Shown piece by piece: positions 623-47,996 of a stretch of 64,000 nt of DNA. Position 1 is the first letter of the stretch, and each line of letters opens with the position of its first letter. The notes beneath the pieces are model-generated. The model ran no database searches. It was not told where the DNA came from and was given only the letters and a program-made list of their open reading frames with translations. The stretch is from Marsupella aquatica (Eukaryota; Plantae; Marchantiophyta): positions 1,909,659 through 1,973,658 of the forward strand of contig OZ316895.1 in assembly GCA_973895155.1 (NCBI GenBank), written 5' to 3'. The translations under genes and the position numbers were made by a program.

Positions 623-701
623 TGATTGAGCCGCAGAGGGACGCAGAGTCCGATTCGGGGAAACTGAGCGCTCAACCGCGGTGACAAAGAATACGTTTGA
701 A

Positions 702-25400: not shown

Positions 25401-26861
25401 TAATTATTCATGTGGGTCAATTGACAACAAGTTTTCCTAAGTAATGGTATGACGTCTTGCAGGTTCAAGGTTGTCAAGTTGCCAAGTTACTGAGGAGATT
25501 GGTTTGATATAGTAAGTGATGGTTTGATATAGTAAGTGAAACCGGCTGCAAACAGTTAGGTGACTGTTTTTGTAGGTAGTATTTCAGTCAAAAGTGTAAA
25601 CAATGTTATCTGAGTCAACTGAATGTTCTGAGCAACTCCATCCAAGCTTTTCCATTCCATTTGGGCTTCATAGACACACGGAGTTCCATCGGGGCTTTAG
25701 TTGCCTTTGGTCTCAGTGATTCTTTGTGTGCGATTAATTTGGGTGGACAGCTAATTGTGAGAGACAGTGTAGTTGAATAAATGATAACTCCTTGAATGGT
25801 TGATTGAACACATTGCTTTGAAGCACCTTCCAAAGTGTTGCAATCAATAGGTTTCCAGCTAATTGCACCCCGACTCCGTTTTCTTTCCATGGAAATCCAA
25901 ATTCTAGACATAAATGGTATAGACCCGTTTGCCCTTCCCCCGTCTTGGTCCACCAAAAAAATGGTTGGTGGGCAAAAATTACCCAGTCACTTACCTAAAA
26001 AGCAATCAGGCTAAAGATATTCAGGCTGAAATTTACAAAATTCTGTTTCATCTGCACCACCTACTGGACTATGGGGGAGTGTTTGCTAGGAAATACTTTA
26101 CAATAGTCAAATAGTGTTCTATAATTGAAAGTAAATACTCCATATCCCAGACCTGTGCTTTTTCCTGACCATCTGGAATATGAGATAAGGAGTATTTTCC
26201 CTTTGGAATATTTTCCTGACTGTCAGATCTATTAGATATTTACTCTTAAGCCTAGGGTTATGATTGTAACCATAGTTAGGGATACAATTAGTCTAATAAT
26301 CCATATCCCAGATATTGATATTCTCCCTTATGAAAATACTCCATAAAATGTGGAATGTGCACTCAAATTTTGACAATTGTTTGAATTTGGGGTTGTGAGT
26401 GGTGGCCCTATGGTGATCCGTCAGTAAAATAGTTCATTTTTCCGTGATCGGCAATGGGCCCAAACTACAAGCATGCAACTTGAATCGGCCATAACTTTTG
26501 GCCCCTAGGTCCGTTGGCCGAGAAATATGCGGCCCCATAATCGGGCTCATGTGGGGCCTCTCGGGCCCCTATGGTGATCCGTCGGAAAAATATCTCATTT
26601 TTCCTTGATCGGCAACGGGCCTAATAGAGTTAAATTGGAGCGCGCTTTTCTCAAGCCTTGTCCTTGCTCTTACTAGCCTCCTCTTTGTTAGTCGCTTCCC
26701 TAATGGCCATGATGGTAGCAAGACTAAGAGGGGCTAAACGTTGGAGTTAGGCAACGCCGGAGCAATGATGAGTAGGTGAAAGTTGTATTCGCGACTTTGT
26801 GTTTGAGTTGGACATTGTGTTTGAGTTTTGACCCTAAACTACTCTAGATTGAGTACAAAAC

Positions 26862-27170: not shown

Positions 27171-27192
27171 ATCACTATATTCATTAAAACTG
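27171..27192 (+). repeat. Subterminal inverted repeat, left copy (partner at 44272-44293)
   Basis: atcactatattcattaaaactg is the exact reverse complement of cagttttaatgaatatagtgat. Confidence 0.9.
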
Positions 27193-27629
27193 TACTTTTA
27201 AAAGTCCATAAGATGAACCCTAAAGTTTTTTTTTTTCAGGCCAAATTTCTATTAAAGCATTCCCAAAAGCTAATTTTTTTCAGCCCAAATATACACTTTT
27301 GAACGCCCAAAATTTTGTTTTTTTTCACCCAAATGTTTAATAATAACTTAAATCATATATTCTAATTAATTTAAAAATTAGAGTAAATTTAATTTAGTCC
27401 AAAAATCAGAGGCCAATACCACTCAGACCATCTATAAATTAAAAAATATAGATGGTCATAAATCAAGGGTCAAAATGAGATTGACCCACTATATAATTAT
27501 TAAATTATCCAATCCAGTGAGAGAGCCTCACACTAAGCATATCCTAATTATTTACTTTATCCTACATGTTCAAAACATATCCTTTGACATAATATGAATG
27601 TACAATTCAGGGTAGGCACTAGAGCAACC

Positions 27630-28691
27630 CTATCTCCTAATGATCAAGACAAAACTTGTTTGAACAAGAAAGTCTGCTTCCTGATTTATCATAGCGGATA
27701 TCACGGTTGCAAGTATCTCTCGCATGGTGGTTCTTAAACTTATTGGTTTGGTGAGATCCCTAGTTCTGAGAACTTTCCAAATAAAATGTCTTCTATTTTG
27801 TCTATGAGGACCAGAATAGTTGTCTCCAAGTATTACGTTTGCAGTTTCTTCGATCTCATCCGTGGTCCACGTCTCCAGTGGTGGGTAATGCTGCACCTCG
27901 TTCTTTCCGTCCCAAGGAATCTCTTCAGGAGTCACATCCAAGATGGTGCCAAACTCCTTATGGATACAACGACAATCTCCCCACTTCTGTTCCAAAAGAG
28001 CATAGATGGCAGCATGATCCTCCTTGCTTGTTAATAAATTGAAAACAGACCACTTTGGATTGTTGACAGTGATATAATGTAGAACGCAGTAAGCCTTTCT
28101 CAATTTGCAAAGATACGGCCATAATATCTCGGGCAAAAAAGTGTCATTTGAAGCTGTGTGAGTAAATGGATTTGGAAACAATCCATTCACGTCATAATTC
28201 AAAAATGCCTTCAATGGAGAATCATCAATAAGAATTGTATTAGAAGCATCATATTTTTCTGGAAAACGGTCCCAAATGGTTTGCAAATTCTTCAGAAGTA
28301 AATTGGCCTTCCCATCTGTTATATCTGGCCTTTGGATGCAACTATCAAAGGTATCTTCTTGAGTAAAGACAAACTTGAACTTCTGTCGCTCCTCCTCAGT
28401 GAAAATCAACTCCATTAAGTCCATTGTTTTTGGCCTCCTTGCACAGGTCCAAATTGCGACGTCAAAAACCATGAAAGCTGCATATAGAAATTCGTGGAGG
28501 TATGGGCGCTCCACATACATGAAATTAAACCCTCCACGTCTCCCCCAGTGCACACCACGTAAACTTGTCTGATTTCGCCATGATCCTGAGCTTCTGGTCT
28601 TAATGCAATCCCAACAAATCTTGTTAAGGTCAAGAACCAAGAGCTTTCGCCGGATCGGAGAGTGTAGTATTGGAGTAAATTTTGGAAACAT
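27630..28691 (-). CDS. FCP1/SCP (NIF, HAD-superfamily) phosphatase-like domain; probably the last exon of the cargo gene
   Basis: KLLVLDLNK (DxD motif variant), ERPYLHEFL, FDVAIWTCA, LLKNLQTIW, NTILIDDSPLKAFLN. A phase-compatible intron (about 28736-28873) links it to upstream ORFs, but with two in-frame TAA stops. Confidence 0.8.
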   Translation of the reverse strand: MFPKFTPILHSPIRRKLLVLDLNKICWDCIKTRSSGSWRNQTSLRGVHWGRRGGFNFMYVERPYLHEFLYAAFMVFDVAIWTCARRPKTMDLMELIFTEEERQKFKFVFTQEDTFDSCIQRPDITDGKANLLLKNLQTIWDRFPEKYDASNTILIDDSPLKAFLNYDVNGLFPNPFTHTASNDTFLPEILWPYLCKLRKAYCVLHYITVNNPKWSVFNLLTSKEDHAAIYALLEQKWGDCRCIHKEFGTILDVTPEEIPWDGKNEVQHYPPLETWTTDEIEETANVILGDNYSGPHRQNRRHFIWKVLRTRDLTKPISLRTTMREILATVISAMINQEADFLVQTSFVLIIRR

Positions 28692-29879
28692 TAAAATAAG
28701 CCCTTAGTCAATGGGACTCAAAGTTTAAACAATTACTACGGAGGAAAACTCTCAAAATTTGAAATCAAACAAACTTTGTTAAAGCATTTGAAGTAGAGAG
28801 GAACGACCTCGGGGCGACCCTCCTAGAAAAACATTAATTACATTCACTTGCCATTTTTTAGATCCAAAGTATACCTGGGTCAAACCCTTCCTCAACAGCA
28901 ACGCTTTCCGAGGGAATGCCAACAAAATCCTTTGAGGAAGGAGATTCTACGACGGAACTTTGGTCTGTAAAAAAGTATATTATTACAAAGATAAAGCTTA
29001 GATTGTCATTAAAATACCAAGAACCAAAGAAAGGGCTAATAATTTCCAATGCTAAAATGCCCAAATTCATCTATTGTTTGATCACCTAGAACACTCTGTA
29101 TCTCGGAATTGATACCACTGGGAAGTTGCTCTTCAAAGGATGGGGGTGCAAAAACTGGGCTCAGTCTCAAGTTCAGTTTTTTGTAATCTGATTTTGCCAT
29201 TATCTTTGGAGCATCGTCTAGTGATTCTATCATTCCAACCTTTGGTCCATTTCTCCATATAAAATGAGTTGCAGGACGGACTGTTTTCATATATCCAGTC
29301 CTGCCGATCTCGGATCCAGAATTTTGTGAAAATGATAATACTACGGGGCTTCCTGTAGAAGCACTTGTAAAAACCAATTTAGTCTCTGATGAGCAATATA
29401 GAGGAGACAGGGGAGGATTTGAAGCACCAGCCTTCTCTTCTTCATTTGCAGCGGTCTCAGGTACTTAACGATCATCCTCCTTTGCAAGCGCAATGTCTGA
29501 CATTTCTCCCAATTATGCTGCATCAATATTGCCTAGACCATCTGTGCTTGCCTTCCAATGTGCATCCGATGTGGACGATGTAAGATCTAGGTCCGACTGG
29601 TGCATCCAATTCTCTACACCGGCAAAGGGATTTCTTGGTGGGTCGCCCTCAGGTCAACCCACAACATCGGCCAACCCCACACCAAAGTAGGGAATACCTA
29701 CCACTTGTGTTCCACGTTCATCCAAATTTTGGGTGACCCTGTCGTCTGTGTCGTGACCCAATTCTCCTTCCTCAATATCATCTTCGCCCTGGTCTACGCC
29801 TTCTTTGGCGCCAACATGCTCGGAAACCCCATCGCGGGCTCTACCAAATTTGGAACCGCCCATCCGGTCACTCATTATG

Positions 29880-30763
29880 GAAGGAAATTTCTCGCAGAGA
29901 ACCCTTCCATATGCCTGAGTGAAATCATATTCATCCTCAATGTCTCAATACGCAAAGCATTCTCTGAAACACAACAATGGCACCTTCATAACCTGTCCTC
30001 CCGAGAAATAGTCAAGTATAGTCTCCCCTTCAGCCAAAAAAAATTCAATAATACTCTGCAGCATACATTTTGGCTTAGCGTGAATATTCACAAAGCCACC
30101 TCTACTTCCCACCATCTCAAACATGGGAGCCTTTTGTAAGAAATCTCCAATGTGAAATGCCAAAGTTGACTCAGTCTCTGTCTCCTTACTTGTCTTACTC
30201 TTATTCTTATCTCGCTTCTCCGTCTTGTCTTCCACTTGGAAATCAGGGTCGATCGCCGAATTGTAAGAAAATTAGCAATTAAATCCAGGCCTGAACACTT
30301 GCTTCCAATCAAATTTCTCCTCAGTGGTGATTCCTGCAAAGATTATCTCCTCCATACCACAACTGAAAAGTAAGCCCTCTGGAACTGGTGTATCACTCCG
30401 TCGATAGCTCCCGTAGTCAACGTGGATGTCCATTCCCTTTTCATGTTGCAATTTCCTAAGGGCACTCAAAATGTTTGCAGCAAGTGGCCCCGGATGCACA
30501 GTCATGACAACAACAATTGTTGGATTTCTTGGAAGATCCACAATGTATTGCAGTAATGCAATAATTTCAGCATCGGTCCAAACATGTTGTCGGAGCCTAC
30601 TGAAGTCAACAATGGCAAGAGGACACAAAGGCGAAGGCTCTTGTAGCATTTCCGGCACGGTCGTCTTCATCAAATTATCACTAAAAAATGTCAAGAAAGG
30701 CTCCGTGCGAGAACGACCAATCCCACCAAATTCTTTACAATACAACCCATCTAGTCTGACCAT
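29880..30763 (-). pseudogene. Beta-class N4/N6 DNA methyltransferase-like domain, degenerate and split over ORFs 30272-30763 and 29945-30235
   Basis: HAKPKCMLQSIIEFFLAEGETILDYFSGG...FRECFAY resembles the KP..L...I....Gd.VLDpFxGSG...R...E C-terminal block of N6_N4_Mtase. Upstream CPLAIVDFSR sits where motif IV (DLIxxDPPY) is expected, giving the beta-class order. Confidence 0.55.
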
Positions 30764-30769
30764 CAGACT

Positions 30770-31360
30770 TTATGGGAAACTCTCCTTGACCACATTCTTC
30801 TTCAATGAATTGTTGAGGTAAACCTCACCCGCTGCTCTCCTCAATTTTGTCATCTCAAGCTCAGATTTCAAGGAAGGCAACAATATCACCAGAGACTCCC
30901 AAGATGTGCCAACATGAAACTTCTCACGATACTTTTCCACGAAATAGCCAATAATGACTGTTCTCAATTTGGACATTATCTTGATTGTAAGGGCCAAGTC
31001 TCCCATTGCGACAAGCTCTGATTTGTTGGTGATATCCTTCTTCAGCAAGACACGCTCCTCTTCAACGTCCTTCAAGATCTCAATTATCTGTTTGCTACTA
31101 ATCTCTCCTTCAAAGCATCGAAAGGTACCGGGAGTGATCAATTTTGGGGGTCTTGGCCCTCCATACCCACCAGCCCCGTCTTGGAGCTTCCCACTCAACC
31201 ATTTTGCACACATGTTCCGCCATAATTCAAAGAGCTCATCTTCGGCAAAAAGTAACCAATAAATGCTCTTTAGGCTTGACTTCCCCATTGTAACCTTTGC
31301 CAGGGCAAGCCAATCCTGCATATCCAATGGACTTGACATTAGTTTCAGGGTACAATGCAT
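30770..31360 (-). pseudogene. Helical linker exon of the cargo gene between the ParB-like and MTase-like parts
   Basis: 196-aa ORF, co-linear and in frame with 30272-30763 across a single stop. No family recognised. Confidence 0.45.
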
Positions 31361-31649
31361 ATGTTAGAAAATTTATACCTATGTTTGAAACAGGCTAAGC
31401 CGCCTCGCCCCAAGGGCGTGGCGAACCTCTACATCTAACCGCAATTGACTGAAACGGAACTAGGGAATTATTCGTAGAGAGACTAGTCTAGGTTGCCTCG
31501 CCCTCAAGGCAAGGCAAACATTTGCTTTAATCTTCTAACCAAGGAAAACAAGAAAAGGTAACCTCGCCCTTGGGGCGAGGCAAACCTCTACCACTGACAA
31601 TCTTTAAACAAAGTGGATCAAGAATAGTTTGCATTGCTCCAACATGTAC

Positions 31650-32609
31650 CTGATAGTTTTTTCTATCTGTATTCTGATTAGTCCCAATCCCTGGACGCGG
31701 CAGTTTCCCGCACTCCTCAAACTGCCTTCGTGCATGAACAATAGTCTCTAAAAAACAAGACTTAAATTGCATAGTATCATTGACAGCATTCGATAAACTT
31801 GAATGCTCAACCAAAATTTCTTCGGAGTGAGGTCAGATAGGATCCTTGCTTTCCTATACTTTAGTTTGTTGGCAAGATCTATTAGCTTGGCGTCAGTCTC
31901 GGCCCACCCTTGGATCCATTGGGCAGCTCTTGTAGAATGCTGGCCACTGATGGCAAGGAATTGGATCTCATGCTTCTTCACACCAATCAAAAACTCTTTC
32001 CTATCTTTGAGGTGTGTTGTCATAATGAAGCAACTGTTTAGTGCTCTCGCGATACAGAATCAAATCAGCAACTTGTGGTTCCTGTCCAGGGTTTTTCATC
32101 ATAGACTTTGATATCTCCATTGCATGCGAACAATTGAACATTCGATATACAAAAATAGCCGATGGCGGATTAATACTTTTTATAGGAATATCAAAAACTT
32201 TGCGGATGCCAAAAGTATAATACTGCTCAATATTACGCAAAACCTCTTGGCCTTTGAGCACATCATCTTCTTTGGGTCCTTCTGTCGGACACATATCATC
32301 CTCTGGATGCAAGACAAAGTTTGAAGTCGACGCCGATATTGGTTTTGATTTCGCAACCTTTGCCTTCTTTGTCTGTTTTTTTGGGGGGCCCTCATCATCT
32401 TCATTTTTTTTAGCAATCTTCTTACGGCATGAACTCCCAGATTGTTTCTCTTGTTGAACAACTAGCTCTCGAAGCTTTTGTTTCTTCTCTGTCTTTGATT
32501 GCGCACTTCTTTCCACTGTCTTCTTTCTCTCCTTTGCCTTATGCTTTGCTTCTTTTTCTTCATCTCTGAAATCCACGTCCGGCACGCGGCCTCTTGAAAC
32601 TGTGGACAA
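31650..32609 (-). pseudogene. ParB/Sulfiredoxin-like domain preceded by a Lys-rich NLS-like segment; frameshifted
   Basis: FDIPIKSINPP...YR...HAMEISKSMMKNPG.EPQV, then after a frameshift FLAISGQHSTRAA (compare the ParB/Srx iidGxHRxxA motif), ARIL, and LVEHSSLSN. Confidence 0.6.
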
Positions 32610-34080
32610 AAAATGAAACTCTTGTCGATTGGTTGCTCGTATGAAAAATGTGTCTTCTCAATCATCCTTTGAACTATCCAAGTAGACGGAGGGTCCACAC
32701 TGTCCGCATTGTCATGCATGTGCTTCTTTACGTAGAGAAATCCAAACAATAGGTCAACTCCACTTATTTGAGAACGCGTCTTCTCAAACATCTGATCAAT
32801 TGTTACTCAATCTGGGAAGAATCCCATATCAGCTACGCTTATCTCCAATCGAGCCATCCACTCAACATTTAGTAAAGTCGAGTAGAGTTTTATTGGCACC
32901 AGAAGTCTCATCCACTGAGATTTCTTATTGGACTCAACAATAATCATTGCATTGCGGTTGTTGTCTGTGTTCACAAGGACGACTGGACCTAGAGTAACAA
33001 TTGTCTTGCGGTCATTCAATTGACTTGTGAGGCCCTTGAAACAAATCAAGAGACTACCTTCCGCCGACACCCCAACTTCTAGTGCCCATCTAAATCCTAG
33101 AGTATCTTGGTCAGGGAAAACAAAGTCCTTGATATCCTTGTCCATAATATTTAACTCCGGCTTCTCAAGATTTTTTCCTGGTAAGAAACATTGAAAACAA
33201 ATGGTCAGCATCATATTTTTAACATTGACATGTGGAAAACTTTCAAGGTGCCTTGCCCTTGGGGCGAGGCGACAAATAGAAGATTGCAAAATCTTCTTTG
33301 CTCCTAGTGCAATTAGCCCTGCCACCTCATCCAAGCAATCAAACATTATTTAGGAATGCAGACGACATCGCCTCGCCCCAAGGGCGAGGCAACTTCTGGG
33401 AAAGCAAACAACATTTAGGAATGCAGAGGACGAAAGTAGACAACATTTAGGAATGTAGAGGACATCACCTCGCCCCAAGGGAGAGGCAACTTCTGGGAAA
33501 GCAGACAACATTTAGGAATGTAGAGGACATCGCCTCGCCCCAAGGGCGAGGCAACTTCTGGGAATGTAGACAACATTTAGGAATGCAGATAACATCACCT
33601 CGCCCCAAGGGCGAGGCAACTTTTGGAAATGCAGACTATATTTTAGGAATGCAGACGACATCGCCTCGCCCCAAGAGCGAGGCAAAAAATAGAATATAGC
33701 TAAAGATCCTTTATTAATGTAAGATACAAGGTCCAATACGCCTTCGGAGCAACAAGAAATCTAGAATGAAGTAGACGTCGCCTCGACCTTGGGGCGAGGC
33801 GACTGCAAAGGAATATAGAAATTTTCCTAATAAGAAGTTTGAAATCCAAATTAAAGTAAAGTTGCCTCGCCCTTAGGGCGAGGCAAGAAGTTGAAGCAGG
33901 TGGTGCCTTACGTGGAAAAGTTAACTGGGCTTTCTTTGACGCCTCCAATGCATTGTTAACCAATTTTTGGACATCCGGGTCTTCAGGGTCATATTCGTAT
34001 AGAGAGTTATAATTGAAGTTCAATGACTCTTGAGAACTGGCGGAGGTGGTGGAAGCTTCAGAACTGGAGGAAGTAGACAT
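32462..34080 (-). pseudogene. 5' exons of the cargo gene (unknown domains)
   Basis: Co-directional ORF pieces (33700-34236 with internal MSTSSSSEAS, 32807-33346, 32462-32791), separated by repeat-filled probable introns. TATA-like tatagg on the minus strand at about 34386-34391. Confidence 0.4.
33346..33690. repeat. ~65-bp tandem array carrying the hairpin GCCTCGCCC-CAA-GGGCGAGGC
   Basis: Five hairpin copies at about 33370, 33467, 33532, 33597 and 33663 within the unit catttaggaatg(c/t)aga.gacatcgcctcgccccaagggcgaggcaacttctgggaaagcagacaa. Dispersed copies lie at about 31402, 31495, 31562, 33250, 33780 and 33864. Confidence 0.9.
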
Positions 34081-35269
34081 TGTAAGGGGCGAGTGAGATT
34101 TAAGATGATACGTGGCAGCAATGGAGAATGCCACAGGCTGCAAGAGGGCACTAACAGGCAAACAATGATCGAGGGAGCGACCCAAAAGGGAAGGGAGCAA
34201 GGCGAAAATAAAAGCCTTAGAGCGAGGCGGAAACAAAATCCCAAGAGCGAGGCAAAAACAAAAGCCCTAGAGCGAGGCAAGAGGGAGGCAAGGAGTGAGG
34301 AGATGAGAGAGGAGCCTGAAGAGGAGGAAAGAGAAGAGGCAAGAGGGAGGCAAGGAAATGAGGCCTCAAGCGCAAGGCCTGCCTTCCTATACCCCCTGCG
34401 AGCGAGGAGTCCAAGGAGGCAAGGATCCGAGAGGGTACGGAGGCATCAATGCGCGCCAATGATGGAGACCCTCCTCACTGCATGTGATCGTGAGTCACCG
34501 ATGGTGTGACCACTCACGACCACTCGCGACTCACCTACCAATTTTAAACTTCCGAGCTGTCAGCGGTGTGTGCTCGCAACTCACCTATCACTCGTGAGTG
34601 ATTGGCTGACACCCTATCCGATGTCTACTTGTGTGCTGGGTGCGTGCCTCATCCACCCGTGCCCGATCTGTTGGTGTCCACTCGTGTGTTGGGTAATGTG
34701 TGGGCTTTTTGCCTCTCAAACTGAGTATAGACCTCCTGCAATCCATTTTTTGGTTCATTGTCATTTAGACAGTGATTGGTACGATCACTGACTCTCCTCT
34801 GTCCGAGTGCCTTGTTTAGGTCCGCATGGTTGAATGCAAGGTTTAGTAAGGGCACTGGTGAACACTGTGGTGCTAAGAGTTACAATGCTGGCATCCAAGG
34901 TACCCATTTAGCTTGTACAAGGGTGGGCAGAGATATATTGCGGAGCAGGTTAGTGATTTTATTTATTTATCTTAGAAGTACTAGCTCAACTACATCTAAT
35001 TCAATACCTTTAAGCCAAACCTAGATTAAGATTTACACATTAGGTTCTAGATCATATATTTTACTCATTTCTAGACCTTTATCCACAGTCTAGCATGTGT
35101 AAAACTTACTGTACCCCTTTATGTGATTACTAACATAGTTTCTAGAAGTGAGTCGGAATTATTTCGTGCCGACCTGACTATGTCATCTTAACTAGCATTT
35201 TAAACTGGTATATAAAAGCATAAGCAAGATAGTTTCACAAATAGTTTTGACATAATTTCAACTTAATAG

Positions 35270-35590
35270 TTGGAGTAGGGTTGAAATAATTCCGACCCAA
35301 CTTGTCAATGTTTAGTCAATTAAATCATTTTAAGACATATTGTTGGAGGAGGGTCGAAATAATTCCGACCCGACTTATAAATGTTTAGTCAATTCAATCA
35401 TTTTAAGACATATTGTTGGAGGAGGGTCGAAATAATTCCGACCCAACTTGTAAATGTTTAGTCAATTCAATCATTTTAAGACATATTGTTGGAGGAGGGT
35501 CGAAATAATTCCGACCCGACTTGTAAATGTTTAGTCAATTAAATCATTTTAATGTTGGAGGAGGGTCGAAATAATTCCGACCCGACTTGA
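35270..35590. repeat. 73-bp tandem array (about 4.5 units) with the palindrome GGGTCGAAATAATTCCGACCC
   Basis: Palindrome starts at about 35278, 35351, 35424, 35497 and 35563. The intervening sequences are near-identical. Confidence 0.9.
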
Positions 35591-35715
35591 ATGTATTTAG
35601 GGTTTTGAGTGATTTTACAATATTTTTTGGAGGAGAGTCCAGATTTTGAAACATGGTTGTAACATGGGGAACTTAACAATTTCTAACTTTATTTGAATAT
35701 AGATAGTCCGCTATC

Positions 35716-36880
35716 ATGATCAATTTTACACGAGGGGATGAAGTGTCATTGGTGATCGATGGATTTGAAACGGGAATTGGGATAGTTCAAAAGGTTGACC
35801 CCCAAGATACTATACAGAACATTTGTCTAGGGGATAATCGAATTGAGGTATTGATCAAAAAGTGTTTTGATGGATCGCGTCAACTTCCATTTCCTTCGCC
35901 CAAATTTTCTACATTGGCTGAGGCAATTGACTCCTGCGTGATTTGGGATTGTGCATTGGCATACTTTAGGTCATCAACTCAGCGCCGAAGAATCAATGTC
36001 GATGATTTCTCTTTGGCTGGAGATGCTGGAAATGATAAATCCAAAATTGATGCAAGGGTTGAAGAGGACGTGTTCAAGGAAGGAGATGAAGTTCAGATGT
36101 TCATTTTTGATCAGTTGGTTGCAAATGGAGTCGTTTTCAAGACAAATCCGATGGATATTTGTCATACTGAAACACTCGGGGTTGGTCGCATCAGTATAAG
36201 AATATCTGATATTGTTAAGGGAAATCAAAAATTGCCATACTCGCACCCTGGAGGTGATACAATAGAAGAGGCCTTGCATACCTGGGTTATCTGGGATGTT
36301 GCGCATGTTTCTAGAAAGGGCACTCTACGAGATTTTGGCGTGTTTGGTAGTTCAAATATTTTCAATGATCTTCCATTAAAAGATTTTACACTACGTTCCA
36401 ACTGGATGGCGGAGGAGGTTGATTTGTATGACGCTTCTCGTTGTCGGAAGGTTGCAACAGGTGTTATCACGGTCCCATTTGAAACAGGTGCCGTTGACGA
36501 ACTAACTTCTTGGTGCAGATCATGTTGGTGTTGTTGTTGTGAATATCAATGAACCCGGATTATTTCCAAATATCCGTGTTGGTACCCCTGGCTTGGTGAG
36601 GTGGGAAATCAAATCCCTTCTATTGATTTCGTCTCAAAGGTTTCTTGGGGATATCCTTGAGGAAGTTTCAGAGAAGTGGATGGAGTCGGGTCGAACTAAG
36701 GGCGATCCGGATTCGGATGGTGATGGTAAACCTACAAAAAGACCATACAATTTCATTAGGAGGACAAAAGTTGATCTTGAGGAGAAGAAGAAAAGGCATT
36801 TGGAGTCGAGGGCACTTTTGAAAATTAACGAGGAGTCCATTGATTCCATCCAAAGAGAAGGTTGTTGCAAGCTGAAGTGA
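35716..36880 (+). pseudogene. Three tandem Tnp1/En-Spm-like (CACTA TnpA-type) domains followed by a transposase N-terminal Cys motif; probable 5' half of transposase B
   Basis: Repeated pattern GDEV.....(VA.)G.V.K.dP.D......LG..RI.(V/I).I.....G...LP(F/Y)P.P...T(L/I).EA.....VIWD, with the third copy frameshifted. The ORF ends SIQREGCCKLK*, parallel to EIHKYSCCDNYC in transposase A. Confidence 0.6.
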
Positions 36881-37654
36881 ACACGATTTCGGACCGAACG
36901 AGAACTATTTCCTCTAAACGAGAAGTTTATTTTCATTTTCCGCCGAATCTCACGAAATCGGCAGTTTTTTTCATCAAAAACACGTTTTTGGGGAAATAAT
37001 GTAATTCGTATTGGAGTTCGGATTGAAACAGCAAATTTAATAATGATCAAAACCAATGAAATTCATGCTAACAAACATTCGTATTATCAAGGAACAATTA
37101 GATCCGAAAAAATTTCTCCTCAACCTCATATTCACGCTCTCCGAAGATATCTGAAAGGTCTTATCTATAAATCCATATCCACATTTCGAGCCAAGTGCGA
37201 TAACTGTATCAGACTCCGGATTTGAGCCATGAAAGCTCCGACCCAATCTCAGTTTTCTCAGTTTTTGGATATTTACCAAAAATATTTTACATCACAGTCG
37301 ATAAGAATTACTACACGGTTCGTCAAATTTACCTTGCAGTTACCTCCGCAATTGACCCTCCGCAAGTGACCATAGTCAACATGCCATTCTTTCAATAGCA
37401 ATGCGCAGTCCGATAAAATTATCGCGAAAACTACGGGCAAAAAAAATACTAGTCGACAATACTAAGATCCTTCGGTTCATCGGTTAAATTTCAAAATTCC
37501 TATCCATATGAAGAGAACTCTTCGCAATACCAACATCAGATAAATTTATCGCTTCAATTTCAAAACTATATAATTTACCACGATGCATGTGTGAGAATGA
37601 AATTGGAAATCCAAGAAATATACCCTTTTCTGCTATTTTGTCGTTTAGGGTGAC

Positions 37655-37705
37655 AGCCAATCAAAAGTGGACACGTGGGCCAACCCCTCAACAGACACTA
37701 TAAAA
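37655..37705 (+). promoter_or_regulatory. Candidate Pol II promoter of transposase A (CCAAT, G-box CACGTG, TATAAAA)
   Basis: ccaat at about 37658, cacgtg at 37672-37677 and tataaaa at 37699-37705, about 150 bp upstream of the ATG at 37850. Confidence 0.45.
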
Positions 37706-37849
37706 GGGCCACCATCGATAAGTTTTTGGCGTCATTATCGAGAGTAGAGTTTTGGGAGTTGTGTTTTTGGAGCAACATTCTGTCCGTTGAGCCTTTCGTT
37801 TTCCCTGATTGCGGGAGGAATGCAAAGCCCCATAGTGTCTCGGATAGCC

Positions 37850-40800
37850 ATGTCTCAATCAGACACAGATTCACCTTCCAGTTTAGTTGAATCCTCTCCT
37901 AATCTTGTCGCTCGCTGTTTGCCAAGTCACATACTTAAAGCTCTACCTCTCTCACAGCAAATAGTGCCCGAAATCTCTGACTCAGATTCTGATGCAAGTT
38001 CTGGTCCTGAGCCCAGTGCTTACTATGTGTCGCCTAGTAAACCTGAGAAGCGTCGTCTCTTGAGCGTTCCATCGCCAAGAAATGAGAAACTTTCAATCCC
38101 AGGTTTAGGTCCGAGACGTCGCTTCAGGCCATCCATCCCGGGTTATGGAGAGGGTATCGGATGACCGATACGCGTATCGCAGTCGGCATTCAAGTCGCCA
38201 CATTCAACACAAGTTCAACGACGGATCTTTCAGTCTTTGGGTGAGGATCGGGACACATAAATACAAAGACCGATACGGCGATCGGTCTTTGCATTGCCTG
38301 GACTTGATGTGCGAGCAAGCGAGAGAATCGGACTGCAAAGTCCAGACTCGGCCCTTTCTCGAATGGTCCGTGGGAATCGTGGTGAACAAGTACTCAATTT
38401 TCCAGCAGCTCGCGAAGTCGTTGGGACTGCACGTGCGAATCCAGAATCTCCAAGTTCTCAAGGGCGGACTGTCATTGGTTCCAGGCTCCAAGTATCGAGG
38501 AGAGGTCTTAGTGGCGTTCGGGTTATGTATAGAGAGCCACGGAGTCCAATTGTGTTTTCAAATGAGTTGAGTGCATCAGAGGACGAAGATGAGGAAGGAG
38601 ATAGAGAATCCGATATAATAGCACAAGTTGTGTCTGAATGTTTAGGAAGAGCTGTCGAAGAGAATAGTTATAGTCGTCTATTCAGTGCCCCTCTAAATGC
38701 GTCAAGGAGATCTATAGCGGATGGTAGCTCAGCAGAGAGTGATGCATCTATTCGCGAGGCATCTGAAGGACCCGAAAATGCCAATGTTATGAACGGATTT
38801 CAGGCTGTAGAGAAGTCAAATGAACCTAGTAAAAAAGATAGGGACCGAATTACTAGGAAAGACAATGTGATAAATGACAAATTGAATAGAAACAAAATGA
38901 GAGAAATTCATAAGTATTCGTGTTGTGATAATTACTGTCTGAGGAATTTGGGTCTGCTAGCTGTGACGAAACAACGCACTTAATACTATGGGCTATCCTA
39001 CCCAGAGAAGAACGTCCTTCTAAGAGGATGTGTGAAGGGTGGGCATGCTGGTGCAAGTGGTTACTCAGTTAGCGGTAGATCCTTTTGTCGGAGTGGTTTT
39101 AAGAAATTATTTTTACTAGGAAATAATCGTCTCCAAAAAATCTCGCAGAACATGTTTTCTCGGATACAGATCGGTACAGTTTATCGAGAAAAATCACCCG
39201 CACATCTTGGTCTCGTCCAATGGCTGGATGATTTTTTTTCCACAAATGTCGAGAGTCTCCCCAACAAGGATATCTTTCATTTACCTGACAATTGGACAAA
39301 AACATAAGTTTTTGATGCCTTCCAGTCCGAAACTCTAATGCGCCAAGAACAAGGCATGACATATTCGTGGTTTGTTTGCATTTGGAACAAGGAGTTTCCT
39401 CGCGTGCGCATCCCCAAAAGGAGTCGTTTCTCTACCTGCGCCCCGTGTACTGAATTCAAAGCACTCCGTGACAAGGCAACACTCGAAGCAGAAAAGAGTA
39501 AGTTTCTAAACCTGTGTGTTACTCCCGATAATTTTATCGGGTTGAGTATTCATGTGCTTCTTCTTTGGCCATGTGAGTGAATATATCGTTTGAACAGTTT
39601 GAATACTGAACCTGATAAATTTATCGCTGTCACAGTTTTTCATTACGGTCTTGTGTTTGAATACTGAACCCAATAAATTTATCATTGTAAGGGTTTATCA
39701 TTACGGTCTCGTGTTTGAATACTGAACCCGATAAATTTATCGCTGTCAGGGTTCAACATTGCGGTTATCATGTTTTGTCCTAAACATTTTTATTATTGTA
39801 GGAAAATTCTAAACATTGCTAAATGAGCATCGGAAGGCACAAGCAGTCGAGAGGGAGAAGTTAGCAAAGCACCGGAGCAAATGTTACAAGAGTCTGGAGA
39901 AATATTTGGGCATCTGTATTGATGGAATGGATCAAAAGAAGACAGAGTTACCTCATTTCATTCGGTGTCCGAAGAATATGGATGAAAAGTATTTCATCCC
40001 CGTACACATAGTGGGTTGTTTGATCTTCAACAAACAATTAAGTTCAAATGTTTTTTTGAACTATCCAAATATTCACAATGATAGCAACCTGACCATCCAC
40101 GTTATCCAGCATATTCTGAATACCTGGGAAGGTCTGCTCCCTTCAGTGCTTTACCTCCAGCTTGATAACACAGCTCGGGAAAACAAGAATAAATATCTTA
40201 TGGCATATTTGAATATGTTGGTGGAGATAGGTGTTTTCCAGAAAATGAAGGTTGGTTTTCTATTGGTGGGGCACACCCATGATCAAATTGATCAAATGTT
40301 TAGCAAGTTTTCTTCAAAATTGAACAAGCGAAAAGCTTTCCGGTTGGACACTCTTTCAGCAATCATAGAGGAATCCTACAATCCTATGGCAAAGATATTT
40401 TTCGTCGACGAGGTTGCCGATTTCAAGAAATTTGTGTCAGACAAGGATCAAGCAAATGACAAGGATATGGATGGTTAGGTTCTACGTACTCTCCATGGCA
40501 TAAGTGCTCAAAAACAATTTTGGATTACTAGAGTACTCAAAGATGGAAGTGCTCGGTCCGTATTCCATGCCAAACATCTTTCAACGACAACCGATTGGGG
40601 GGAGACGGTGGATTTTGTTCGGTACATTCCATCATCTGGAATGTGGGTCGCACCACAAATGGCATTGAAGTCGGCCACGGGAGCGACAGGAGACAATGAA
40701 GAGCAAGAGAATGATGTTGAGGAACAAGATGAGCGGGCGGCTCAAAGTTATTTGTCAACTCTTCAAAAATATCGAAGAGCAATTGAAGATGGATTCAATT

Positions 40801-41405
40801 ACTTTGACGACGAAGATCGTCTATGGTGGGGTCGTTTTTTTTACAAACAAAAAGAAGTGATTCAGCACCACCTAAAACCTGCACAATGGAGTTTTGATTG
40901 GAGTTGGCCTAAGGTAAACGTACAGAGAGAACTTCCGAGTAATCCTACGGAAGCAGCAATGGAACCTAGCTTGGTTGATAAAGTAGCGGGTGTGAGGACA
41001 GTCATGTATTCCGGAAGTCGAAGAAAAGTCACAGAAATTGGAGACTTCAAGGATCTAGAGGTGAATACTAAATTTGCAATGATATGTGTAGCAGCCCATC
41101 AGGATCCCAAGGGAAGACCATTCTGGATGGCAAAAGTGACTGAGATTCTCACAAGAATTAACGACATCTCGGAGCGGATTAAAATCACTTGGTATGCAAT
41201 GGATTCGGAGGAAGAGTCTGCAATTGAAGGCAGATATTATCCGGAGAAAGAGGCTTCGTCTAGCAAAGTACTGGAGGATGAATTGTCCCTAGCAGAAACT
41301 GTCGTTTATGCGTATAACTTTGCATTATTGGCAAATAGTACTCTCCCTATACAAACAAGATGAATCATTCAAAATGCAATGGAGACTGTAGTCGTTGATA
41401 GTTGA
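37850..41405 (+). pseudogene. Transposase A, DUF7869/Sola-like DDD type, with a spliceosomal intron at 39498-39801 and several stops and frameshifts
   Basis: CCDNYC; FCRSGF; HLPD; STCAPCTEFK; ICIDGMDQKK; LYLQLDNTARENKN; GFLLVGHTHDQIDQMFS; C-terminal PFWMAKV...ITWY domain. The GT-AG intron joins the ORFs in frame. Confidence 0.85.
39520..39770. repeat. ~59-bp intronic repeats with the 14-bp palindrome CGATAAATTTATCG
   Basis: tttgaatactgaacc.gataaatttatc occurs three times. Variants lie at about 37410, 37540, 39526 and 41560. Confidence 0.85.
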
Positions 41406-41593
41406 AGCTAGTTGCAGGTTTAAGTTATAATGGTTATCGTTCCCATGAATATGTACAGTGGTTATCGTTCTGGGACTATGTACTCCGCAGCTATAATGAT
41501 ATCTTTTTTTTTTAAATAATTGCAATGACAAACCAGTTAGAGCATACAATGCTAAGTCCGATAAGATTATCGACAACTCCATTCCCCCCCAAG

Positions 41594-43752
41594 ATGGAAT
41601 TAGATGGGTTTGCTAAGGTTACTGAAGTTACTATGTACACCATTTGGAAAAACTCATTTGATAATTTTGACTTTCACAAGGGAAGTGCATTTGCCAAGTG
41701 CACATTTTGCACTGAGTTCAAAGATCAATTGATGCGGGAGAAGAGAAAAAAAGAGCGTGCAGAGATTGAAGAGAAAAGAGCGTGACATCTTTGTGAACAA
41801 ATGTCAAGAAGATATGTTTACTATGCTCATAGGGTTCTTGCAAAGAAGGATCCTCAAAACTATCTTTGCATTATTCACGATAAGATGGATCAAGCCAAGA
41901 CTTGGATCCCCAGGTTGGTCCCCACTCCAAAATCCCTCTCTGGTAGTGGTCAGCCTTTGCCTATTGCTCTTACTGGGATGTTAACCCATGGAAGAGATCC
42001 TGGAGTGTATGCACATTTCAGTTTGACTGGACTTTGGCCTGGAGATGCAGACTTTACCGTGACATCTTTGGCCAAATGCCTCCGAGATTTGGAAGATTAC
42101 ACAGGAGACAAAACTGGAGACCTTCTTGAGGGATTGAATTGGAATGCAACTAGGCCAATATTTCAGTCCCTTCTAGACTTTGAAGCATTTCTGGCCGGTT
42201 ACTTGGAACCCAAAAATGTTTCAATTGTTCAATTTCAAGGCATTGAAGATGGTCAGGAGACTAAAAAGTTAAGCACAGTGGATGTTGGTTCTAAGGATGA
42301 TCCTGAGACTACTAGGGGCTCTTTCAAGCCCTTACCAAGGCACCTAACGTTGCAGATGGACAATTCAGGGAAAGATAACAAAAATCAATATGTGATGGCA
42401 TTTTGCACTGAGCTTGTTAGCAGGGGGTGTTTGAAACTGTGCAAATGTCATTCCTCATGGTTGGCCACACCCATGAAGACGTGGATGCATTATTTTCTCA
42501 AGTATCCAAACAGGTCAGATACAAAAAGGTTGCTACCCTCTTGGGGTTGATGGCTGAGATTTGGGAGTGTGAAAGCATTCATCCTGTACCATGATTGATT
42601 CAAGAGGTTGCATCTTACAAGGAGTATTTGAAAACTTTCCAGGTGAAAGAGATAGAAGGTCACTCAAAACCAGTGGCATTTCTTTTCTCCATGAGGGATA
42701 ATGTGCCAATGTATCAATATAAAGCACATGTCAAGCAACCTTGGCTTCTGGCAATGGGGAGGTCCATTTGGAGAACTAATCCCATCACAAATGCGCTCAT
42801 TTTACCGGAAGGCCAACCATTTGCAAAACCTATATCTGGGGATGTACAAAAGAAGGCTGGAGAAATCATCCCATTCCTTAATCGCTATATTGATTTCTTG
42901 AAGAAAAGTTGTAAGGATGAGACCTCTACAGCATATAAAGAGAGATTTCCTCTGGTCAAATATTGGGAGAATCTTGTGCAAGCACCGTCCGAGGAACTTA
43001 CAATAGAAGGGGAGGGGGAAAGACAATTGCCATTGACAACTGATTTTTGGCCAAAGGCTAACCATGGCACAGGTTACAAGATGATTTTGGGGACATCTCA
43101 GCCGTCAAGTGAACCTTCTCAAAATCCAGAGATGATGGACCTTCAAAATGAGTACATGGAAGAGATGGAAGATCAAGCTGCACCCTTTGTTGGTGCACGA
43201 CAAGAGCGAGAACCCGCACGTTGGATTCCTCTACAAGATATTCAAGAAGGTCACTTTGTATTTTTACGTCCAGAGGATGAATGGGAACAGGAAAATGGCA
43301 AAGGGCGTTTCTGGTTGGTTCGAGCTTTGGGTGGTGTGGATCCAAACCGTGAGGTTCCCTCAACAGATTTGCAACATATTGAAGGGTCTTCTTCAACGTC
43401 TGTTGAAAGCATTCCTCTTAGGAATGCTCCTATGTTCCAAGTACAATGGTGGAGGCCTAAACATGGTAAGCATGATGCAAAGGATGATGTTCAATATGAA
43501 CGTTGCTTTCAAACCACTAAGACTTGGGAGCTGGATCCTGGGTTTGACAATGTTACTCAAAGTTGGCAGTTTGCAAATTCTGCAATGTATGGGTTTAAGT
43601 CAGGTGCTAAAGAACAAAATATTATGGATAGAGGTTTGAAAATTCCTAAGAATGTTTTGAAAACTCTCAAAATTTACATGGAAGGTATAATTGATGAGCA
43701 GATTGATAGAACTCGTAGGTTACAAGTCTCCACTCAAATGACTTGTGATTAA
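41594..43752 (+). pseudogene. Transposase B catalytic and C-terminal part, DUF7869/Sola-like, disrupted
   Basis: FAKCTFCTEFK; IIHDKMDQAK; LTLQMDNSGKDNKNQYV; frameshifted FLMVGHTHEDVDALFS; C-terminal RFWLVRA...VQWWRP domain. Confidence 0.85.
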
Positions 43753-44504
43753 GAGGGTCGAGTTGATTTCCATGCGTTTGTCTAAAGTGAGAGAACAAGA
43801 CAATCAAATTAATACTCTATGATCTCTCAAAGTTATTGAATGGACTTTCTTATAATTATTATTTTATTTGTCTTAGTATATTTTAATTCTAGAAAATGAT
43901 GTCATTTCATTCCTTCTAGTAGGTTGGATATCATCCTAGTTAACTTTGTCTAGACAGTATAGTCATTCCATTGTATTGGTGCTTAGTTAGATATCTTACT
44001 CAAGCTAAATGTTTTGAATATAGATGCTATCCAAGCTTATATGTTATTACTAGATTCTATCTATTTTCCAACCAAATGAACACTTTTATCACCCAAATGT
44101 TTTCTAATATCATCCAATTTAATATTTTACTTTCCCAAAATTTCATTTTTTTGTCCCCAAATTTACATTTAATGATGCTTGAATTTTCATTTTTCATCTT
44201 CCAAATTTACAATTTTCATGCCTAAAACTATGTTTTTAAATCGCCAAATTTCCCTATATCCTTTATAATTTCAGTTTTAATGAATATAGTGATGTATACC
44301 AATAATATGATGCCGCATGTTGCTACCTATTGATTTACCCTTCCGCAAAAGTAAGAAGGATGTCATTTCAAGGGATCTTGCAAAATTACAAAGTGGTTTC
44401 GGTATATATACGGAGGTTGCGGAATTGTAAGCGAATTATAAAAATTACCGCCGAAGGGATAAAAATGACCCTTGAACGGTTCTCACATCCTCCCCGTATC
44501 AGAA

Positions 44505-46895: not shown

Positions 46896-47996
46896 ATGGT
46901 GATCTCGTTCGAGATGAAGCTCTTTTGCAACTCCTTGGCTTTGATGGTCCTGTTCATTGTTATCAACCGAGCGGACTCAACTGACGTCTCTTTATTGTCT
47001 GAGGGCAAAGACGTTGCTGAGTCGAAGGTCTGCTGGAGAAATGACCCGGCCATGGATCCCTTCTATGAAGTCAGATACGGGCAGGACGTCGTGTGGCAAA
47101 TTCCCCCCAACCCGAAAGCAGTCCTCTTCTTGGCGCATGGAAAGGACAAAGAGCCACTCAGCTACTTCGATCCCGCTCCAAACTGCCCTAAATGCTCCGG
47201 ACTCCCAGAAGACCGTGGTGCTGTGTTGTCTGCTTTAGAAAGGAACTACGCGGTCATAACGCTAAAGAGCGTGACTAGTTATTGGTTACCCTGGGGTGTG
47301 GAGGTATGGCCGCCCGAACCTTCCGAGGACAGAAGAAATGTCATCAGCCTCATCAAGGAATGGACCAAAGAGCATTCGCTGGATCATTTGCCTCTCGCAG
47401 CTTTTGGCTACTCCAGTGGGGGAAACTTTTCGACTTTACTGACGTACGATATTGACTTCAAGTCTTTGATTCTCATGTGCACTCCTGGAGAGCTGTTGGC
47501 GCTGGTGCATGCCAACGCCTCATTCCCTCCCACTCTCTACCTCGCCATGCCTGTTGACGCGGATGGGTACTACCCTCAAGTTGCTTATGCTAGACAAATT
47601 CTCGAATCTAGGGGAGTGCGAACGGGGCAGATCGATATGTTGCCAAGACCCGTCCGGCCCTCCAACTTCAGTGAGAAGATCCGATGCCTCGAGCAGTCCA
47701 CCGCTGAGCAGATCTATGAAGCCTGCAAAGCTGAGAGCTGGTTAACCGATGACGATTACGTCATGAAGAACCCGCTCCTAGATGATGTCGAGCCTGTGCT
47801 CAGGAAGCACAAGGTTCTGCCTTTCTGTGAGAGTACTAATGATACCTGCTTTGCTAAGCACGTGCAGCAGGAAATTAGTGTGGCTTACGCCTTGCATTCG
47901 TTTTCAAGCCAGTTTAACAAGGAGATATTCGATTGGTTGGATCACACCGTGTTTCCTGGCTCTTCTGAACCGGGCGGGTTGTGGACTTCTCAGTGA
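46896..47996 (+). CDS. Secreted alpha/beta-hydrolase-fold protein, copy 1 (intronless)
   Basis: Hydrophobic signal-like N-terminus, AVLFLAHG, C..C.GLPE, nucleophile elbow AFGYSSGG, FPPTLYLAMP.D, and a C-terminal His (YALHSF). Confidence 0.85.
   Translation: MVISFEMKLFCNSLALMVLFIVINRADSTDVSLLSEGKDVAESKVCWRNDPAMDPFYEVRYGQDVVWQIPPNPKAVLFLAHGKDKEPLSYFDPAPNCPKCSGLPEDRGAVLSALERNYAVITLKSVTSYWLPWGVEVWPPEPSEDRRNVISLIKEWTKEHSLDHLPLAAFGYSSGGNFSTLLTYDIDFKSLILMCTPGELLALVHANASFPPTLYLAMPVDADGYYPQVAYARQILESRGVRTGQIDMLPRPVRPSNFSEKIRCLEQSTAEQIYEACKAESWLTDDDYVMKNPLLDDVEPVLRKHKVLPFCESTNDTCFAKHVQQEISVAYALHSFSSQFNKEIFDWLDHTVFPGSSEPGGLWTSQ

What the first reader, a model, noticed from the sequence alone, without database searches (positions are those of the whole stretch)
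31400..34280. At least 11 copies of a 21-bp hairpin palindrome, noticed only in the ParB-like cargo gene: parS-like self-binding sites?
Seen: GCCTCGCCC-CAA-GGGCGAGGC (perfect 9-bp stem) in both orientations, mainly in apparent introns and in a 65-bp array, with half-sites at 34215-34280. Known: ParB proteins load at palindromic parS sites, and TE anti-silencing proteins such as Arabidopsis VANC bind short motifs amplified as tandem repeats within their own elements. Inference: a cognate protein-motif pair for self-recognition.
Basis: partly seen in the sequence, partly recalled or inferred. Interest (0 to 1): 0.7.

Follow-up and report, generated by a model that had tools for sequence, protein, structure and literature searches.

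The report
Transposon's own conserved palindromic docking sites
A broken 17-kb jumping gene, likely from a liverwort, carries 11 copies of one DNA palindrome in two predicted introns of a ParB-like helper gene, plus related sites elsewhere in the element, and the helper protein likely binds them to recognise its own family, an idea already proposed but untested for algal transposons.

Summary
The 11 palindromes are real (chance 0.01; only 3 are perfect). All lie in two predicted introns of a broken cargo gene inside a 17.1-kb Sola-like DNA transposon (22-bp TIRs, 4-bp TSD, empty site seen). The cargo has a predicted ParB-type fold (modelled on a homologue) and a beta-class amino-methyltransferase fold. 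The family lacks the ParB CTP arginine and the DPPY catalytic motif. In intron 2, related copies differ at 0 of 54 arm positions but 30 of 271 other positions (p=0.003). There are no compensatory changes, so sequence rather than hairpin is kept. The motif is not confined to the cargo gene: a second intronic array and scattered hybrids share the core G(G/C)(G/C)TCG-N9-CGA(G/C)(G/C)C across the outer element. Best reading: family-specific binding sites for the element's own, likely enzyme-dead ParB/pseudo-methylase dimer, working like VANC motifs rather than as CTP-clamp parS sites. Binding is untested and the host genome was unavailable. The design and hypothesis are already in print for Ectocarpus Sola1 and Bostrychia Plavaka elements.

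The parts
27171..44293 (.). 17.1-kb TIR DNA transposon, Sola-like; decayed copy of a likely multi-copy family
   Evidence: 22-bp perfect TIR ATCACTATATTCATTAAAACTG and 4-bp TSD GTAT; empty-site joint 27168->44297 in runs X2 and X5, contig ends at 27171 and 44293
27171..27192 (+). left terminal inverted repeat (no copy of the palindrome in it)
44272..44293 (-). right terminal inverted repeat
27630..28703 (-). NIF/HAD phosphatase-like ORF downstream of the cargo gene
   Evidence: PF03031 E=4.8e-17
29036..34080 (-). cargo gene: ParB-like domain + helical HTH-like domain + pseudo beta-class amino-methyltransferase; three predicted exons; broken by frameshifts and stops
   Evidence: homologues; folds; frameshifts at 31818, 32006 and 32552 absent in other copies; stops
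33178..33911 (-). predicted intron 1 (GT..AG, 734 nt) with 8 palindrome-A copies, 5 of them in the 65-bp array
   Evidence: homologue P0003 aligns only from 33202 down; no RNA evidence
31316..31649 (-). predicted intron 2 (GT..AG, 334 nt) with 3 palindrome-A copies (31402, 31495, 31561), directly before the HTH-like segment
   Evidence: six homologous ORFs run out just after a Val codon (GTN) at this site, and P0107 and P0020 run on across it; conservation test
33337..33720 (+). 65-bp tandem array, 5 units, one palindrome A each
   Evidence: family D1
34195..34280 (+). 25-bp array of four right half-sites upstream of the cargo ATG
35150..35583 (+). palindrome B, GGGTCG-AAATAATTC-CGACCC: five copies in a 73-bp array plus one reversed copy, in a predicted 5' intron (about 34949-35702) of the transposase-side gene
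   Evidence: the intron is predicted from splice signals only
29640..29660 (+). hybrid site (B-type outer, A-type inner) in the low-complexity coding tail of the cargo gene
   Evidence: PWM 19.9, top hit after masking A and B; its one mismatch coincides with a premature TGA
36688..36708 (+). hybrid site in the transposase-side coding region
   Evidence: PWM 19.3
28800..28820 (+). hybrid site between the cargo and phosphatase ORFs
   Evidence: PWM 17.6, 2 mismatches
27467..27630 (+). two weak sites near the left end (27467, 27610); a further weak one at 43755 just behind the transposase stop
   Evidence: 2 mismatches each; individually weak
35707..43752 (+). outer transposase gene (weak Transposase_23 piece, DUF7869 core at 41786-42594), interrupted by the inner segment
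   Evidence: PF25273 E=5.6e-16 and 8.5e-17; PF03017 E=0.027, below cut-off
36880..41588 (+). inner 4.7-kb segment with a second DUF7869 transposase gene and its own palindrome C (CGATAAWWTTATCG, 7 copies), no ParB gene seen; borders approximate
   Evidence: joint 36879->41663 in X1, loose ends at 41589 and lower depth in X3; no TIR pair found

Best explanation
The palindromes are likely family-specific double-stranded DNA binding sites for the transposon's own cargo protein, a predicted ParB-type/pseudo-methyltransferase that would dock as a dimer on the core G(G/C)(G/C)TCG-N9-CGA(G/C)(G/C)C. Shown: the sites exist, are confined to the element in this window, share a fixed 9-bp spacing, and are conserved in sequence among related copies. 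Predicted from models: ParB N-domain, helical HTH-like domain and methyltransferase fold, with both catalytic motifs lost. Inferred: the helical domain reads the half-sites; the protein works as a non-catalytic occupant or scaffold, not as a CTP clamp or methylase; and its job is VANC-like self-protection, keeping the two divergent genes of its own family transcribable against host cytosine methylation. New sites would spread by small tandem duplications (65-, 73- and 25-bp units) and loop inversion. My odds: protein-read site 0.8, cargo protein as binder 0.6, anti-silencing rather than autorepression about 0.4.
For: 11 copies against 0.01 expected, none outside the element. Intron 2: 0 of 54 arm positions against 30 of 271 other positions differ between run X5 (25% of depth or more) and the X1 majority, Fisher p=0.003. 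The three arm differences of the dead window copy are all G>A, and the other copies carry the palindrome-restoring G. No compensated change in any arm of 11 copies; the flanking Y/R pair is complementary in only 4 of 7 independent copies. A contig of run X7 and a minor X3 variant keep an intact half-site in an otherwise different intron stretch (loose ends at 31381). The combined core has 18 matches at 1 mismatch or fewer, 17 in the outer element, chance 0.31. With A, B and the half-site array masked, spacer 9 still gives 7 matches at 2 mismatches or fewer in the outer element against 0-3 (mean 1.0) for 20 other spacers, with no excess outside. ParB fold of homologue P0107: Z 8.1, rmsd 2.5 A over 98 residues to Caulobacter ParB; 195 of 208 KorB residues aligned, rmsd 5.0. 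Window protein: CcrM-type fold, Z 17.5, rmsd 3.6, 214 residues. Precedents: PMC12477816, bioRxiv 10.1101/2025.02.11.637652, PMC5735166 (passages read).
Against: No binding, expression or methylation data. No host genome was held, so family-wide enrichment is untested. The ParB match is middling: Foldseek best E=1.3e-3 with none at 0.001 or better, best wide VIA Z 7.4, and no ParB or HTH Pfam hit among the 25 families listed for 39 members. The model is of a homologue (48-66% identical to the window pieces), not of the broken window protein. The conservation test covers one intron and one pair of runs, uses contigs that break near repeats, and falls to p=0.02 if the shared mismatch at 31419 is counted. 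Some X3 and X5 copies lack palindrome 3 (joint 31558->31644). The combined core was defined after seeing two hybrids; without them 5 matches remain against a mean of 1 (Poisson about 0.004, by hand). The inner segment has its own palindrome with a transposase but no ParB gene in cis.
Confidence: 0.5

Rival explanations
1. The sites are bound by the Sola transposase (or its N-terminal DNA-binding part), as internal enhancers of transpososome assembly or of autoregulation.
For: The inner segment carries a different transposase and a different palindrome (7 copies in 4.7 kb) with no ParB gene seen. Weak core sites lie about 300 bp from the left end and behind the transposase stop.
Against: The TIRs hold no copy of the motif, and most copies lie 4-9 kb from either end. 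In red algae, inverted-repeat arrays are reported beside the ParB gene on Plavaka elements, a different transposase superfamily (bioRxiv 10.1101/2025.02.11.637652).
Confidence: 0.15
2. Neutral by-product: one palindrome spread by local duplication and kept symmetric by hairpin template switching, with no binder.
For: 5 of 11 copies are one tandem array. Copies 31402 and 31561 share their 3' flank but have inverted loops, a sign of template switching. Copy 3 is deleted in some relatives.
Against: Template switching restores symmetry but should let the sequence drift through compensated changes, and none is seen. CpG-rich arms stay fixed while flanks diverge by 11%. Unrelated repeat units (A, B, hybrids) keep the same core and spacing.
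Confidence: 0.12
3. True parS-like system: the cargo protein is a CTP-gated clamp that loads at the sites and slides along the element, possibly methylating it.
For: ParB N-domain plus helical domain in the order of ParB, KorB and Noc. The Asp at the motif-IV position is kept in 33 of 34 aligned rows, and the SAM-binding motif reads DFFSGG in 16 of 28.
Against: GxxRxxA has S for R in 10 of 10 homologues. None of 110 stored proteins contains (D/N/S)PP(Y/F/W).
Confidence: 0.1
4. The palindromes act as RNA or single-stranded DNA hairpins (splicing aids, cruciforms or small-RNA sources).
For: Both introns fold far better than shuffles (z -12.2 and -4.7). A copies form hairpins of -11 to -14 kcal/mol.
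Against: The folding follows directly from the repeats. There is no covariation, both orientations occur, and lone half-sites are kept. B and hybrid sites pair poorly inside (0 to -6.3 kcal/mol) yet keep the core. The strand bias of wobble-compatible changes is not significant (6 against 1, p=0.125). No Rfam family reaches threshold.
Confidence: 0.07
5. The sites recruit a host transcription or chromatin factor rather than an element protein.
For: Intronic and promoter-proximal position at both divergent genes fits enhancer-like use.
Against: No copy in 46.9 kb outside the element, which includes host-type genes. A different element segment uses a different palindrome.
Confidence: 0.06

Closest known systems
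Sola1-1_Ec32 of Ectocarpus and its 1104-aa accessory protein (PMC12477816; passages, reference parts and supplement rows read)
   Same: Giant Sola-type element with 4-bp TSD; accessory gene on the strand opposite the transposase, with ParB-like and N4/N6 methyltransferase domains; proposed to bind and modify its own element.
   Different: Here a land-plant (liverwort-like) host, 22-bp rather than 282-bp TIRs, a methyltransferase fold without motif IV, an extra NIF phosphatase ORF, and a defined, conserved palindrome. The word 'palindrom' does not occur in that paper's main text; its figures were not seen.
Plavaka accessory gene PAG3 and adjacent inverted-repeat arrays of Bostrychia (bioRxiv 10.1101/2025.02.11.637652; passages read, supplements closed)
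   Different: EnSpm/Plavaka element; ParB is fused to a 2OG oxygenase, and the methylase sits in a separate gene (PAG2). No conservation or binding test was seen in the passages read.
VANC proteins and their motifs in Arabidopsis VANDAL elements (PMC5735166 passages; PMC10398659 abstract)
   Same: Element-encoded protein; short motifs in introns and other non-coding parts, amplified as tandem repeats; family-specific.
   Different: VANC motifs are 8-9-bp non-palindromic words on Mutator-type elements, with binding and demethylation shown. No relationship to VANC was found or tested here, and nothing is shown biochemically.
Bacterial ParB/parS, Noc and KorB (structures; CTP motifs from PMC11229316 passages)
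   Same: Predicted fold and domain order; palindromic site.
   Different: CTP arginine replaced, no ParA seen, a methyltransferase fold follows the helical domain; 21-25-bp site with a 9-bp variable centre.
Beta-class amino-methyltransferases CcrM, M.RsrI, M.PvuII and rotifer N4CMT (PMC10406627 passages)
   Same: Fold and motif order (IV before I); partly kept SAM-binding motif.
   Different: Catalytic DPPY/SPPY replaced by DFxR-like residues throughout the family, so it is predicted inactive.

Membership tests
ParB/parS (CTP clamp) | ParB/Srx N-terminal fold | tested here: met
   Homologue P0107 model (pLDDT 91.9): Z 8.1, rmsd 2.5 A, 98 residues to 7bm8; the first 13 entries listed by Foldseek are all ParB or Noc; scores middling
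ParB/parS (CTP clamp) | Central helix-turn-helix DNA-binding domain | tested here: inconclusive
   Helical domain aligns along KorB (195 of 208, rmsd 5.0) and Noc (196 of 221, rmsd 5.4); helix-basic turn-helix seen in the alignment; no HTH Pfam hit among the families listed
ParB/parS (CTP clamp) | CTP motif GxxRxxA | tested here: not met
   S instead of R in 10 of 10 homologues covering it (motif from PMC11229316); position assigned by sequence inspection
ParB/parS (CTP clamp) | Palindromic site bound by the protein, CTP-dependent spreading | not testable with these tools
   Palindromes present; binding needs EMSA or DAP-seq
Beta-class N4/N6 DNA methyltransferase | Permuted methyltransferase fold | tested here: met
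   Z 17.5 to CcrM, Foldseek E=1e-7; PF01555 weak in the window piece, E=0.0065
Beta-class N4/N6 DNA methyltransferase | Catalytic motif IV (D/N/S)PP(Y/F/W) | tested here: not met
   0 of 34 rows covering the position and 0 of 110 stored proteins; DFSR-like instead
Beta-class N4/N6 DNA methyltransferase | SAM-binding motif I | tested here: inconclusive
   DFFSGG in 16 of 28 rows, DYFSGG in the window; shortened against the canonical FxGxG (recalled)
Sola DNA transposons | TIRs and 4-bp target-site duplication | tested here: met
   22-bp TIR, GTAT on both sides; feature from PMC10741241. The empty allele in X2 reads GTGT at this place
Sola DNA transposons | Sola-type DDD transposase | tested here: inconclusive
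   DUF7869 (PF25273) hits; equating DUF7869 with Sola is recalled, and no Sola profile or reference was compared
VANC-type anti-silencing system | Family-specific motif in non-coding DNA, amplified in tandem repeats | tested here: met
   tested in the window and in laid contigs only; two hybrid sites are in coding DNA
VANC-type anti-silencing system | Protein binds the motif and lowers DNA methylation of the element | not testable with these tools
   no methylome or binding data
VANC-type anti-silencing system | Homology to VANC proteins | not tested
   No direct comparison was run; the folds found are ParB and methyltransferase types

The most novel reading that the evidence does not exclude
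Land-plant Sola transposons have turned a phage-type ParB-methylase into an enzyme-dead 'barcode reader'. A dimer reads a family-specific, CpG-containing TCG-N9-CGA palindrome spread over the whole element, and shields it from, or senses, host 5mC. This would be a second sequence-specific anti-silencing system in land plants, independent of VANC, with a protein-motif code readable from sequence.
Probability: 0.3. Interest if true: 0.75.

Novelty: new variant of a known kind. Interest (0 to 1): 0.5.

Why it matters
[quoted passage not shown] ParB-bearing algal transposons have been proposed to do the same but were not tested in the passages read. This locus supplies a concrete, testable protein-site pair in a land plant, with comparative evidence that the site is read as sequence. 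It also makes two sharp predictions: binding should be CTP-independent and no methyl mark should be written. If true, it adds an independent anti-silencing strategy and a possible programmable epigenetic reader.

Tried and rejected
No host genome was held, so no genome-wide motif map. The look-up of sequencing runs listed no RNA holder, which is no evidence on expression; splicing therefore rests on splice signals and homologues.

Protein-seeded scan of metagenome contigs: 148 pattern matches, none confirmed. These look like unrelated prokaryote-type stems and say nothing about the host genome.

Homodimer prediction for residues 42-519 of P0001 gave no answer (score 0.01, alignment not used, fold uncertain); it is not evidence either way. 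Sequence profiles did not reach ParB structures or families; only M.RsrI (E=0.008) and weak DndB (E=0.031) appeared. Rfam: only two sub-threshold MIR5565 rows on the 73-bp array, treated as chance. No TIR pair was found for the inner segment. Run X7 covered only 41 bases of intron 2. Faster arm decay in the window copy (3 of 54 against 5 of 271) is not significant (p=0.13). An ESM Atlas search of the ParB part could not be run.

Literature searches listed no paper on such elements in liverworts, judged from titles and abstract starts; only the top 12-25 rows of the larger result sets were shown. Subscription journals, Iyer et al. 2011 (not read) and bioRxiv supplements were out of view and may hold it.
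Full report
OBSERVATION. The pattern GCCTCGCCC-NNN-GGGCGAGGC matches 11 times at up to three mismatches, all between 31402 and 33884, against 0.01 expected from shuffles. Three copies are perfect, six have one mismatch and two have two. Five are units of a 65-bp tandem array, so about seven are independent. Loops are CAA (6), TTG (3), TCA and TTA. The conserved half-site extends to TYGCCTCGCCC. Four right half-sites form a 25-bp array at 34195-34280, upstream of the cargo ATG at 34080.

THE ELEMENT. The region lies in a 17.1-kb DNA transposon, 27171-44293, with 22-bp perfect TIRs and the 4-bp duplication GTAT. Contigs of runs X2 and X5 join across it, so the empty site exists; in X2 the target reads GTGT. 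The four runs laid gave 718-11562 matching contigs, so the family is likely multi-copy; summed depth is not a copy number. A 4-bp TSD fits the Sola superfamily (PMC10741241, passages). The transposase pieces hit DUF7869; that this Pfam family is the Sola core is recalled, not tested. A 4.7-kb inner segment (about 36880-41588) with a second DUF7869 gene interrupts the outer transposase and is skipped or thinner in some runs. The closest named homologues of the cargo are from the liverwort Calypogeia fissa, and the two best ESM Atlas clusters are Streptophyta, so the host is likely a liverwort.

THE CARGO GENE. It reads on the minus strand from 34080 to about 29036 in three predicted exons. Intron 2 (31316-31649) is supported by six homologous ORFs that run out just behind a Val codon at this site and by two proteins that run on across it. 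Intron 1 (33178-33911) rests on splice signals and on where homology starts. All 11 palindromes lie in these introns. The window copy is dead: three frameshifts that other copies lack and at least six stops.

A model of homologue P0107 (pLDDT 91.9) matches ParB-family structures: Noc at E=1.3e-3, with none at 0.001 or better; Caulobacter ParB at Z 8.1, rmsd 2.5 A over 98 residues; KorB over 195 of 208 residues, rmsd 5.0. The downstream window protein, read with X at its stops, models as a beta-class amino-methyltransferase (CcrM Z 17.5, rmsd 3.6, 214 residues). Both catalytic signatures are lost family-wide. GxxRxxA (PMC11229316) has S for R in 10 of 10 homologues. No (D/N/S)PP(Y/F/W) occurs in 110 stored proteins; the position reads DFSR-like, with Asp kept in 33 of 34 rows. 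An NIF phosphatase ORF follows.

ARE THE SITES CONSTRAINED? Contigs of four runs were laid on intron 2 (X7 covered only 41 bases). The table lists 34 variable sites at 25% depth or more. Three are in arms, all places where the window has A and the other copies have the palindrome-restoring G; one is in a loop; 30 are in the other 271 bases. Between X5 and the X1 majority, arms differ at 0 of 54 positions and other sequence at 30 of 271 (Fisher p=0.003; p=0.02 if the shared mismatch at 31419 is counted). This holds although 12 of the 54 arm bases are in CpG. A contig of X7 and a minor X3 variant keep an intact half-site in an otherwise different stretch. Against this: some X3 and X5 copies have lost copy 3, the test is one intron, and contigs break near repeats.

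SEQUENCE OR HAIRPIN? No arm shows a compensated change. The flanking Y/R position is kept as a class in 13 of 14 half-sites but pairs in only 4 of 7 copies; both orientations occur and lone half-sites persist. The strong folding of the introns follows from the repeats themselves. Copies 31402 and 31561 share a flank but have inverted loops, which points to template switching as a way the sites are reshuffled.

THE MOTIF IS WIDER THAN THE FINDING. A second 21-bp palindrome, GGGTCG-AAATAATTC-CGACCC, forms a 73-bp array in a predicted 5' intron on the transposase side. It shares the core TCG-N9-CGA with the first. A scan with its outer arms revealed hybrids with B outside and A inside (29640, 36688). 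The combined pattern GSSTCG-N9-CGASSC has 18 matches at one mismatch or fewer, 17 of them in the outer element (chance 0.31). With A, B and the half-site array masked, spacer 9 gives 7 matches at two mismatches or fewer in the outer element against 0-3 for 20 other spacers. The rest of the window shows no excess (10 against 5-18; Poisson 8e-5 at the mean, 0.03 at the maximum). The three best masked PWM hits of the window are all in the outer element and score like known copies (17.6-19.9 against 17.5-26.7; best outside 14.9). The pattern was chosen after seeing two of these hits, so the test is not fully blind. The mismatch at 29640 coincides with a premature stop, which suggests the intact letter completes the site (inferred). 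B and hybrid sites pair poorly inside, which again favours a protein reading two half-sites at fixed spacing. The inner segment has a different palindrome, CGATAAWWTTATCG (7 of 9 window matches, chance 0.56).

MECHANISM. Most likely the cargo protein docks as a dimer on these sites through its helical domain (one search shows a helix, basic turn, helix segment with variable exposed residues). It would act without CTP clamping or methyl transfer, as an occupant or scaffold that keeps the family's two divergent genes active against host 5mC. Sites and conservation are shown; folds are predicted; binder, dimer and purpose are inferred. Main rivals: transposase sites (the inner segment pairs a transposase with a palindrome and no ParB gene), neutral amplification, a true CTP clamp or residual methylase, hairpin function, and host factor sites. 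KorB-like autorepression is an alternative purpose for the same binding.

WHAT IS KNOWN. Ectocarpus Sola1-1_Ec32 carries a ParB plus N4/N6 methylase gene opposite its transposase, proposed to bind and modify its own element (PMC12477816). Bostrychia Plavaka elements have inverted-repeat arrays beside a ParB-like gene, with the same parS-like proposal (bioRxiv 10.1101/2025.02.11.637652). VANC is the tested precedent (PMC5735166; PMC10398659 abstract). Passages of PMC4738411, bioRxiv 10.1101/2021.02.12.428880, bioRxiv 10.64898/2026.05.21.726589 and PMC10406627 were read for context. Earlier AI notes of this scan report similar elements in the same genome; they were used as leads only.

VERDICT. 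A real, constrained motif and a plausible cognate protein: a new variant of a proposed, still untested kind. It works like VANC motifs; it is not a member of the CTP-clamp ParB/parS class or of the active methyltransferases by the motifs tested. Interest 0.5.

Noticed in passing
window 1-1240: GC 59%, intronless bacterial-type DNA: an ORF that looks like a pectate lyase (2-760, minus; name recalled, not scanned) and an IS1380-like transposase remnant (761-1270; PF01609, PF13701), joined abruptly to AT-rich plant-type DNA. Likely a contaminant or chimeric join, possibly a recent transfer.
   Followed up: partly
window 36880-41588: Inner Sola-like segment with a second DUF7869 transposase and its own 14-bp palindrome CGATAAWWTTATCG, four copies of it in a predicted intron (three in a 58-bp array); no TIRs or ParB gene found.
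   Followed up: partly
window 27630-28703: Open 357-codon NIF/HAD phosphatase frame, no stop in an otherwise decayed element, in the same direction as the cargo gene; could be a further exon or a partner gene.
   Followed up: no
window 46812-47996 and 53187-54500: Tandem pair of intronless alpha/beta-hydrolase-like ORFs, 80-84% identical in DNA, 6.5 kb apart; weak BD-FAE hit for the first, E=0.006.
   Followed up: no
run X3 joints 31585->27171 and 31506->34354 (window coordinates): Rare rearranged copies whose breakpoints lie in or just beside palindromes, one joining to the left TIR (table 5c).
   Followed up: no
window 34350-34385: A further imperfect inverted repeat (AGGCCTCAAGCGCAAGGCCT) and GAGGC-rich half-site relics upstream of the half-site array, in the putative cargo promoter.
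   Followed up: no
window 26406-26624 and 26241-26292 / 44837-44888: A 58-bp direct repeat pair left of the element, and a 52-bp direct repeat on both sides of it (81% identical), which suggest insertion into an older repeat.
   Followed up: no
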